Assembly: GCA_038740245.1 (NCBI GenBank)
Contig: JAVYLZ010000002.1
Location: 39,399-56,145 of the forward strand
DNA length: 16,747 nt
DNA from: Candidatus Micrarchaeia archaeon
GTDB taxonomy: Archaea; Micrarchaeota; Micrarchaeia; CAILAH01
Reading direction: 5' to 3'
In this document: piece after piece, positions 15,001 to 16,747 of the stretch
How positions within the stretch are numbered: the first letter of the stretch is position 1
Layout of the letters: each line of letters starts with the position of its first letter
Program-made: the position numbers

Positions 15001-16747
15001 AGGCAACATATTCGTCCCGAGCGAGAGGTACGAGCAGCTTGAGGCGTACGTGAAACCCGTGCTCAAGCATCTTGACAATGGCACGCCCGTTTCCGTAAGC
15101 CAGCTCATAACAGGGCTTTCGCGCCCAATAAAGGACGAGGGCTCATTCCTGAAGGCGGCCCGTGACTCGGGTGCGCGGGTTTTTTGCCCCGCCATAACGG
15201 ACGGCGCGCTTGGGATGCAGCTGTATTTTTACAGGCAGCAGCACAGAAATTTCGTGCTTGACCAGCTCGCGGACATGAATGAGCTCGCACAAATAACGCT
15301 TAATGCCGAGAGGACCGGTGCGCTCATAATAGGCGGCGGCGTGGCCAAGCATTACACAATAGGAGTTAACCTGATGCGGGAGGGCCTTGACAGGGCCATA
15401 TACATCTCAACCGCACAGGAGCATGACGCATCGCTCAGCGGCGCATACCCGCGCGAAGCGGTGAGCTGGGGCAAAATCAAGTCATCCTCGCGGCACGTGC
15501 TCGTGAATGACGAGGCCTCAATCTCGTTCCCGCTGCTTGCACTTTCACTGCACCAGAAGCTCAGGGGCAAGTGATATGATGGCCTGTGGCATAAACCAAC
15601 CCCCTACTAACAGAACCGCCTTTCCGTTATCCCCCGCACTTTTCCTGATTGTGCTTATGCTCCTGCTGTGGGCACCTGCATTGTTTGCGCACAGGGGGCT
15701 CGGCCTGAAGGTTGAGTATGAGATCGGCCGCACGCTTGTTGCGCAGAACGTAAGCTGCGAAAACCTCTCGGATTTTGAGCTTGAGATGATAGGCGACTAT
15801 TATCTTGAAACCAAGTATCCCGGCAGGTACCACGAGATGATAGACAGCGGGATGGGCTCGCGCACCGAGGAGGAAATAAACCAGTTCCACAGGGACATTG
15901 CGTATGAATACTACTGCAGGTACCGGCCGGCCAACAAGGAAAAGATTCAGCTCATTGATTACACGTATATGGGCCTGCAGCTGCTCCAGCTGCTTGTGGT
16001 GCTCGGTATACTCTACCTGATCTACAAGATAGTTTCAGAGATAAGGTCTGAATTACGGCAGAAATAAGGAAAAATTATTTTATGTAAGGGGTCAGGATTT
16101 TTATCGCGCGGGTGATGGCGTTCTTGACCTCTTCCTCGCTTTTACCGCCCGTGCATATGATTTTTCCATTCTTGAAGAGGAGTAGCGAAGCCTTCGGGTT
16201 TTTCAGCTTCAGGATAGCGCCCGGGAATTGCTCGGGCTCATACTCAACATCCTCAACTTCCATCGCAATGGAGTACAAATCAAGCTCAACATTCAAGCTG
16301 GCGGAAGCAACGATATTTTCAATCCTGAATTTCGGCTGGGGTATTTTCTTGACTTTGGGCATAGTTTCACCCTATTTTTAAACTGACGTAAAGAAATAGC
16401 CGCATAACTTTAAAAAGGTATTCAGCCCAAAACTAACCTGTCCTAAGCGAGATTACTTCGTAAAAGGCTGATAGCATGGTTAAGAGGTCAAGAGGCACAC
16501 TTTCAACGCACTCGCGCAGGCTGAAGTCAAAGGGAAGGCTTGGCGTTACAAGGGTATTCAGGCAGTTCAAGCCGGGCGACAGGGTGGTTGTGAGCATAAA
16601 GGCAGGCCACGGCGGCATGCCGCACCCCCGCTACAGGGGCAGGCACGCGACCGTTGTCGCGGCGCAGGGCGGCGCGTATGTCATTGAGGTGCGCGACGGC
16701 AACGCCACAAAGCGCCTGATATCCGGCCCGGCACACCTTGAGCCGGC

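What a model noticed while it worked through the whole genome (the two positions that open the first line are those of the whole stretch)
16075..16362. The only TBP is a half-size, single-repeat protein
The sole TATA-box-binding protein gene of this genome (g00128) encodes 95 residues, one TBP repeat instead of the universal two, with a convergent gene 8 nt behind its stop. I read it as a TBP that works as a symmetric homodimer, the state long postulated for the ancestor of TBP, and the phylum shows the whole series: one half-gene, two unlinked half-genes, or a fused two-repeat gene whose halves tend to group by lineage. New would be living organisms whose general transcription factor TBP is a homodimer (or heterodimer) of half-proteins, and repeated re-fusion, a natural experiment on how the TBP saddle and promoter polarity evolved.
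Evidence so far: pfam.tsv/Swiss-Prot: one PF00352 hit, 51% identical to residues 6-89 of a 199-aa TBP; six-frame HMM search of the genome: 1 match, open frame 98 aa. Relatives: 7 of 8 order genomes have a TBP hit, 6 of them one single-repeat frame of 98-106 aa, one (G004) a two-repeat frame; closed one-contig genomes G045 and G049 have exactly one half-gene, G024, G040, G106 two unlinked half-genes. Sample of 46 Micrarchaeota genomes incl. this one (45 at >=90% completeness): 12 with one half-gene only, 20 with two unlinked half-genes, 13 with a two-repeat gene, 1 mixed. 1042 database proteins of 52-167 aa match at E<=1e-5, many on contigs of 0.1-1 Mb; the family is highly conserved (41 invariant columns, am [...]
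(Added by a program. Inside this text positions count along the whole contig: contig position 39,399 is position 1 of the stretch shown here. "Call 12" and the like, gene names such as g00115 and contig names such as C1 are that model's own, and its searches are not shown. The text may have been shortened before it was handed on; [...] marks where a part breaks off. The agent that wrote the report below was given it as the finding of a first reader that could run no searches.)

Follow-up and report, generated by a model that had tools for sequence, protein, structure and literature searches.

The report
Half-size TBP as sole TATA-binding protein
This small archaeon and many of its relatives encode only one half of the TATA-binding protein that starts transcription, so two copies probably pair up to do the job, which makes the long-supposed two-piece form of this universal factor testable in living cells.

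Summary
Confirmed. Window 16075-16362 (-) encodes an intact, conserved 95-aa one-lobe TBP, the only TBP hit in this 81%-complete genome. It sits at the usual TBP locus, divergent from L21e. Of 149 phylum genomes, 42 have one half-gene, 57 have two or more, 45 a two-lobe gene, 2 are broken and 3 have none; two one-contig genomes have one half only. A second phylum shows the same states. A predicted homodimer scores 0.61 against a best control of 0.14, but this may be memory of solved TBPs.

The scan noted the half-TBP on at least 12 other genomes; ten paper searches did not find it. No biochemical test exists.

The parts
16075..16362 (-). single-lobe TBP gene, 95 aa plus stop
   Evidence: AlphaFold2 monomer pLDDT 91.3; the 44 Foldseek matches at E<=0.001 include only TBP entries among those listed
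16365..16373 (-). probable ribosome-binding site (GGTG-type, purine-rich) just upstream of the ATG
   Evidence: GGTG seen at this place in all 8 family genomes; role inferred
16409..16416 (-). TATA-like box TTTTTAAA, 47-54 nt upstream of the TBP start; probable TBP promoter, readable on both strands
   Evidence: conserved in all 8 family genomes; fits the genome-wide motif; function inferred
16375..16382 (+). second TATA-like box TTTTTAAA in the divergent intergenic region
   Evidence: sequence; a TTTAAAA core is kept in the family; which gene it serves is not known
16476..16747 (+). ribosomal protein L21e, divergent, cut by the contig end; marker of the conserved TBP locus
   Evidence: PF01157; synteny counts
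15579..16067 (+). convergent ORF (162 aa from this ATG) with no Pfam match; its stop lies 7 bases from the TBP stop, leaving no room for a second lobe

Best explanation
The gene is this organism's working TBP. SHOWN: it is an intact, strongly conserved single lobe at the orthologous TBP locus, and it is the only TBP found, here and in many relatives. INFERRED: two copies pair through their first strands (beta1 against beta1', with beta5 and helix 2) to rebuild the ten-stranded saddle as a two-fold symmetric homodimer that binds and bends the near-palindromic TTTWWAAA box. Both lobes carry the TFB-binding stirrup, so direction is set only by TFB reading the BRE. INFERRED, weaker: the state is derived. 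In this branch the two lobes became interchangeable (one lobe type, kept alike by gene conversion), which lets the gene collapse to one lobe and expand again; single, paired and two-lobe forms have interconverted several times.
For: Sole TBP in G000. Hand tally of the match tables for 149 genomes at >=90% completeness: 42 one half, 57 two or more halves, 45 two-lobe, 2 broken, 3 none. One-contig genomes G038 and G042 have one half only, also at E<=10 with a family profile (5 of 5 genomes tested had one match). L21e lies divergently upstream in 33 of 34 two-lobe genes, 28 of 36 other Micrarchaeota halves and 41 of 47 type-A halves (one row reclassified). Among 136 halves: N16 99%, V18 99%, F46 100%, F63 100%, K67 98%, E42 99%, E44 100%; the two glutamates match by position (my mapping) the TFB-contacting pair described in PMC7221094; the mapping of the DNA-contact residues is recalled. 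G000 has two ordinary TFB genes and a TATA motif about 29 nt before start codons. Predicted homodimer: score 0.61, best control 0.14; the mark was reached by 20 of 30 proteins solved as pairs and 1 of 23 solved as single chains; runs agree in >=78% of contacts, pLDDT >=86; interface residues 5-25, 69-70 and helix 2, centred on I17-I17'. Conversion: longest exact tract between the lobes of one gene median 42 nt (31 of 38 genes >=30 nt, maximum 98) against median 14 (6 of 258 >=30) for N and C lobes of different genomes of one family. N-versus-C identity 52-92% by lineage against a median of 37.5% in 129 library representatives.
Against: No biochemical or expression evidence. The dimer prediction may be memory of solved TBPs, since halves of a split gene tend to pass by likeness. 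G000 is 81% complete. Exact tracts of up to 98 nt could let assemblers collapse a two-lobe gene; single-lobe chimeras with an N-lobe start and C-lobe end exist (P0448; probably G154), and P0001 is a two-lobe form of almost this very protein. Bubble removal during assembly could lengthen the tracts. My own idea that the half is simply a freed C lobe failed: overall it scores slightly N-like (-3.4 bits; held-out N -8.1, C +10.2) and is a mosaic by segment. The species tree has no outgroup and lacks Diapherotrites, whose TBPs are mostly two-lobed; each addition costs the single-lobe root one step.
Confidence: 0.8

Rival explanations
1. Artefact: the real gene has two near-identical lobes that assembly collapsed, or an ordinary TBP gene lies in the missing 19% of the genome.
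For: Exact intragenic tracts up to 98 nt; chimeric singles P0448 and probably G154; two broken two-lobe loci, G014 and G117; P0001, with lobes 98% and 94% identical to this protein's core.
Against: Seven genomes in four genera of this family are single-lobed. All 11 members of the protein's 90% cluster, from four sources, are 94-98 aa. Whole families are single-lobed. One-contig genomes hold halves only. G150, whose rpoA1 is broken by frameshifts as in long-read assemblies (inference), has only halves A and B. Paralogues A and B sit at different loci, each single.
Confidence: 0.07
2. Primary ancestral state: this branch never fused its TBP lobes, and the homodimer survives from before the duplication.
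For: The lobe is neither canonical N nor canonical C. Single-lobe states are basal in both phyla sampled; root single 5 steps, root double 7.
Against: Canonical N and C lobes are distinguishable across the library (115 of 122 held-out lobes called right for each), so the duplication predates the spread of those lineages; a primary state would need this branch to be the first split of archaea (established knowledge, not tested here). Conversion in both directions also yields a mosaic lobe. Diapherotrites-labelled relatives have two lobes of the same type.
Confidence: 0.06
3. The half protein is an accessory or regulatory single-domain protein, like halobacterial TbpA, and something else serves as general factor.
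For: Single-domain TBP proteins exist in Halobacteria and Thermococcales, and TbpA is non-essential (PMC3597702 passages).
Against: In that paper's table the Thermococcales proteins are listed beside a full-length TBP of the same genome. Here the half replaces it at its own locus, keeps DNA and TFB contact positions, and the genome keeps TATA boxes and ordinary TFBs.
Confidence: 0.04
4. On history only: two-lobe genes were inherited continuously and kept alike by conversion; single genes arose by about seven or more independent collapses, and re-fusion never or rarely happened.
For: Conversion is seen. Deletion between direct repeats is easy (established knowledge). A three-lobe protein, the reciprocal product of unequal crossing-over, exists (P0007). 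If fusion costs four times collapse, the double root wins, 11 against 13.
Against: P0001's junction repeats the half gene's own N-terminal tail in frame. G158's two-lobe gene nests among single-lobe genera (support 0.995, partial marker data) and both its lobes fall in the family's half clade (SH-aLRT 89.5). Tandem or recent duplicates of half genes occur (G118, G103; 3' end in G161).
Confidence: 0.3
5. For two-half genomes (families f3, f4): paralogues A and B form a heterodimer that restores an asymmetric saddle in trans.
For: All 38 multi-half f3/f4 genomes whose copies were all read have both A and B (36 AB, 2 AAB). A and B differ at interface positions of beta1 and helix 2 (consensus) and show no long shared DNA tracts (maximum 29 nt).
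Against: 16 f4 genomes, two of them one-contig, have A only, so A can serve alone. One fragmented genome shows B only (G072). The genes are unlinked and B is never beside L21e (0 of 28). Two homodimers, or a mixture, fit as well. No complex was predicted for this pair.
Confidence: 0.4

Closest known systems
Canonical archaeal TBP (PDB 2z8u, 1mp9, 1ais/1pcz; NCBIfam PRK00394 models)
   Same: Fold of one lobe (rmsd about 1 A over 77-81 residues for many TBP chains), DNA-contact and stirrup positions, ordinary TFB partners.
   Different: One lobe per chain; about 98 bits at best against whole-protein cut-offs of 181-347; named cluster members are annotated hypothetical; the lobe is a mosaic of N-like and C-like segments.
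Monopartite TBP-domain proteins of Halobacteria (TbpA) and Thermococcales (Brindefalk et al. 2013, PMC3597702)
   Same: Stand-alone single TBP domain of about 90-100 aa.
   Different: TbpA is non-essential, and the Thermococcales proteins are diverged and listed beside a full TBP; the word dimer does not occur in the paper. Here the half is the sole TBP, at the TBP locus, across many families.
Postulated single-lobe ancestor of TBP (PMC7221094, PMC12917281, passages)
   Same: A single lobe that must double to make the saddle.
   Different: Probably a derived return to symmetry within one DPANN branch rather than a survivor.
Two-lobe TBPs of Micrarchaeota, of G151's phylum and of Diapherotrites-labelled records
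   Same: Both lobes are of the half-TBP type, with the EPEQFPG stirrup and FKNGK motif; mostly the same locus.
   Different: Two lobes on one chain, homogenised to different degrees (52-92% identity; weaker tract signal in the Diapherotrites-like set, median 20 against 11 nt).

Membership tests
TBP domain (PF00352) | score above the curated cut-off over the whole domain | tested here: met
   104.9 bits against 22.9, profile positions 1-83 of 85
TBP domain (PF00352) | TBP lobe fold (five strands, two helices) | tested here: met
   model pLDDT 91.3; Foldseek top matches are TBPs
Canonical two-lobe TBP | two repeats in one chain | tested here: not met
   98-aa frame closed by a stop, convergent gene 7 bases behind; below all NCBIfam TBP cut-offs
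Canonical two-lobe TBP | minor-groove contact residues (Asn and Val of strand 1, two Phe, Leu, Lys, Thr-Gly) | tested here: met
   conservation table; the role of each position is recalled, not from a call
Canonical two-lobe TBP | TFB-binding acidic stirrup | tested here: met
   E42 99% and E44 100% in 136 halves; 19% and 45% in canonical N lobes, 80% and 87% in C lobes; role from PMC7221094, mapped by me
Canonical two-lobe TBP | position at the lineage's TBP locus | tested here: met
   divergent L21e in 33 of 34 two-lobe genes and in this window
Canonical two-lobe TBP | saddle formed by beta1-beta1' pairing | tested here: inconclusive
   predicted as a homodimer, 0.61 against control 0.14 (20 of 30 pairs and 1 of 23 single chains reach the mark), possibly from memory
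Canonical two-lobe TBP | binds and bends TATA DNA, recruits TFB, essential | not testable with these tools
   needs biochemistry or genetics
Accessory monopartite TBP-domain proteins (TbpA-like, Thermococcales) | coexists with a full-length TBP | tested here: not met
   no second TBP in G000 or in one-contig G038 and G042
Freed canonical C lobe | scores as C lobe along its length | tested here: not met
   25 of 136 halves C-like overall; only the stirrup is clearly C-like in this protein

The most novel reading that the evidence does not exclude
Across two or three DPANN phyla, TBP has become a free-standing lobe that cycles between homodimer, A/B heterodimer and re-fused, conversion-homogenised two-lobe chain, several times independently, giving a graded living series (92% down to 52% lobe identity) of how the TBP saddle loses and regains asymmetry.
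Probability: 0.45. Interest if true: 0.9.

Novelty: new variant of a known kind. Interest (0 to 1): 0.78.

Why it matters
[quoted passage not shown] A lineage that runs on one lobe shows that the saddle need not be one chain, and supplies natural proteins to test whether a symmetric TBP works, how TFB and the BRE alone set direction, and what fusion and lobe divergence add. It also explains a blind spot: the named members of this protein's cluster are annotated hypothetical because they fall below whole-protein cut-offs.

Tried and rejected
Reads: no RNA holder listed. Four DNA runs, contigs only and shallow, were laid: no joints, but no record bridges the whole gene. In run X4 two pieces meet inside the gene with 16 shared letters, too few to count as a bridge. 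One contig of X2 ends in 20 letters that read in frame as a synonymous variant. The collapse question is not settled by these data, and I draw no habitat from them.

Promoter symmetry: A at -4/-3 and T at +3/+4 around the box are alike in single-lobe genomes (G000 0.48/0.52, 168 sites; G038 0.48/0.47, 61) and two-lobe genomes (G062 0.48/0.54, 103; G080 0.57/0.51, 168), from crude ORF calls and about 380-400 kb of each relative. P. furiosus shows a similar near-symmetry (PMC6640164 passages). No difference found. Two archaeal plasmids fetched as controls had too few genes and were not used.

Half as freed C lobe: rejected.

Calling G151's phylum Iainarchaeota: dropped. One record title says so, but Diapherotrites-labelled TBPs form a different, mostly two-lobe group, and the named phylum members are labelled only archaeon. 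I leave it unnamed.

Unusual divergence of the gene between G000 and G159: in line with the surrounding locus.

The first synteny count with a 400-nt limit missed loci and was redone. Phage and plasmid searches gave only haloarchaeal hits among the rows and tallies shown.

Full report
OBSERVATION. Window 16075-16362 on the minus strand is an ORF of 95 codons plus stop. It matches Pfam TBP once, over residues 11-91, at 104.9 bits, and aligns to either lobe of solved archaeal TBPs. A convergent gene ends 7 bases behind the stop, so there is no room for a second lobe. L21e starts divergently at 16476 and is cut by the contig end. It is the only TBP match above cut-off in G000; an unfiltered six-frame search with a half-TBP profile finds nothing else below E 4.7. 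Against six single-lobe relatives the gene shows 37-49 synonymous and 2-5 non-synonymous differences in 86 codons. All 11 members of its 90% cluster are 94-98 aa, and the three with names are called hypothetical.

DISTRIBUTION. Close relatives in named records are labelled Micrarchaeota or Micrarchaeia in most titles. One of the 57, G027, also has a canonical-type TBP on a 3.7-kb contig, probably contamination. States follow families: two-lobe in f2, f5, f6, f8, f9, f12, f18; single in f1, f10, f11, f13-f17, f19, f20; mixed single and multiple halves in f4 and f7; pairs in f3. One-contig genomes G038 and G042 have one half; G016, G033, G100, G107 and G150 have two unlinked halves. Five near-closed single-half genomes gave one match each at E<=10. 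A second phylum, that of G151 (24 genomes, handles disjoint from the first sample, monophyletic in the polymerase tree), shows the same states: 10 single, 8 multiple, 4 two-lobe, 1 broken, 1 none (hand tally). I cannot name it. Diapherotrites-labelled proteins form a third group, mostly two-lobed, with the same motifs in both lobes.

LOCUS. With at least 700 nt of upstream DNA held, L21e lies divergently within 1200 nt in 33 of 34 Micrarchaeota two-lobe genes, 28 of 36 halves outside f3 and f4 (five misses are extra f7 copies), 41 of 47 type-A halves, 0 of 28 type-B halves, 13 of 22 halves and 2 of 4 doubles in the second phylum, and 9 of 37 Diapherotrites-like contigs (one row moved from A to B). 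5S rRNA follows the half gene in 4 of 7 loci scanned, two from each phylum. The half gene therefore holds the place of the two-lobe gene.

STRUCTURE AND MECHANISM. The monomer model has pLDDT 91.3 and matches TBP chains. The predicted homodimer scores 0.61 against a best control of 0.14; the mark was reached by 20 of 30 proteins solved as pairs and 1 of 23 solved as single chains; runs agree in at least 78% of contacts and pLDDT is at least 86. The interface is an antiparallel pairing of residues 12-21 centred on I17, plus 69-70 and helix 2, which is how I recall the two lobes meeting in canonical TBP. Because this is half of a solved fold, the pass may be from memory and shows likeness only. 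Positions I recall as DNA contacts are kept in 136 halves, and the two stirrup glutamates are at 99% and 100%; PMC7221094 describes two such C-lobe glutamates as the TFB contact (passages). G000 has two ordinary TFB genes and a TTTATAAA-type motif about 29 nt before start codons. PMC6640164 states that TBP binds the box symmetrically and TFB sets direction (passages), so a symmetric dimer needs no new rule for polarity. Promoter symmetry did not differ between two single-lobe and two two-lobe genomes.

HISTORY. In the two-lobe genes of these phyla both lobes are of the half type. Lobe identity is graded: P0001 92%, f1 85%, second phylum 79%, f6 75%, f2 73%, f5 71%, f8 69%, f18 67%, f9 61%, f12 52%, against a median of 37.5% in 129 library representatives, a few of which belong to this group. 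Lobes of one lineage tend to group (f1 89.5, f9 with f12 90.1, f6 with f8 79.3; f2, f5 and f18 are mixed), and an AU test on 66 rows rejects one clade of N lobes (p 0.003). But the lobes of one gene share exact DNA tracts of median 42 nt (31 of 38 at >=30 nt, 12 at >=60, maximum 98), against median 14 nt (6 of 258 at >=30) across genomes of one family; identical codons at identical residues are 77% against 49%. This is gene conversion or very recent partial duplication, even where the lobes are only 55-70% identical, and it removes lineage grouping as proof of re-fusion. Assembly may lengthen such tracts. On a 71-genome polymerase tree without outgroup, a single-lobe root needs 5 changes and a two-lobe root 7; they tie when fusion costs three times collapse and the double root wins above that. 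For expansion: P0001, an in-frame tandem copy of nearly this protein (singleton, 1119-bp contig); G158 and P0002-P0006, two-lobe and nested in f1; duplicates in G103 and G118. For collapse: chimeric singles P0448 and probably G154, f7 with f13 nested among doubles, and the three-lobe P0007. Both directions probably occur. I first thought the half was a freed C lobe; profiles refute this. It scores -3.4 bits (held-out N -8.1, C +10.2) and is N-like in strands 1, 3 and 4 and C-like in the stirrup. Such a mosaic fits two-way homogenisation and does not by itself show ancestry. A surviving primordial state is unlikely, because canonical N and C lobes are shared across the rest of the library.

TWO-HALF GENOMES. 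In f3 and f4 the pair is always one A and one B type: 36 AB and 2 AAB among the 38 multi-half genomes fully read, out of 54 in the tally; 16 f4 genomes have A only, one fragmented f3 genome B only, and two more had only one copy read. A heterodimer is possible and untested.

LITERATURE. Ten searches listed no paper describing a single-lobe TBP as sole TBP in Micrarchaeota; the last matched 513 papers, of which I saw 20 in the listing, and the library lacks most subscription journals. Seen: PMC3597702, part 1 of 7 and passages: single-domain proteins in Halobacteria and Thermococcales. PMC7221094, passages, which mention single-lobe versions in archaea consistent with that study; four supplementary files searched without hits for Micrarchae, Diapherotrites, ARMAN, DPANN or single lobe, and one two-page file was not readable. 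PMC12917281, passages. PMC8407392 and bioRxiv 2021.01.12.426361, one passage each, noting TBP presence in DPANN without comment on size. PMC6640164, passages. The scan itself noted the half-TBP at least 12 times on other genomes; a word search for conversion and re-fusion returned none.

VERDICT. The feature is real and widespread. A homodimeric, probably derived TBP is the best reading (0.8). It is not a member of canonical two-lobe TBP by architecture, but most likely works like one. New variant of a known kind; interest 0.78.

Noticed in passing
window 12959-14449 (+): 496-aa ORF with a RelA/SpoT domain (PF04607, residues 246-359, E 4e-18), unusual for an archaeon.
   Followed up: no
window 14452-14595 (-) and 3548-3604 (-): tRNA matches in Rfam; the first spans 144 nt and probably holds an intron, the second is just at the cut-off.
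   Followed up: no
L229 (G161), downstream of the TBP stop to the contig end: The 3' end of the half-TBP gene is repeated in tandem in units of about 90 nt with small differences; a local duplication or a contig-end artefact.
   Followed up: partly
L404 (G166:C8:8500-11500): Long ORF with four diverged TBP-like lobes followed by a hydrophobic stretch and an unrelated tail, besides a normal two-lobe gene.
   Followed up: partly
P0007, P0144, P0143: Proteins with three or four TBP lobes, on short contigs where length was seen.
   Followed up: partly
L317, L318, L320, L321, L325, L326, L328-L331: RNA polymerase subunits A1 and A2 lie in one frame of about 1130-1180 aa in families f10, f11, f14, f16, f17, f19, f20, a clade that is all single-lobe.
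   Followed up: no
G000 C4 and C27 (L336, L338): Two full TFB paralogues beside a single half TBP.
   Followed up: partly
window 16092-16111, run X2: A contig nearly identical to the gene over 240 nt ends in 20 letters that are a synonymous variant matching the G161-type sequence; mosaic allele, second lobe or chimera.
   Followed up: partly
L196 (G027:C77): Canonical-type two-lobe TBP on a 3.7-kb contig in a genome that has halves A and B; probably contamination.
   Followed up: partly
G056, G098, G123: No TBP match in three genomes of 91-93% completeness, two of them with under 10 contigs.
   Followed up: no
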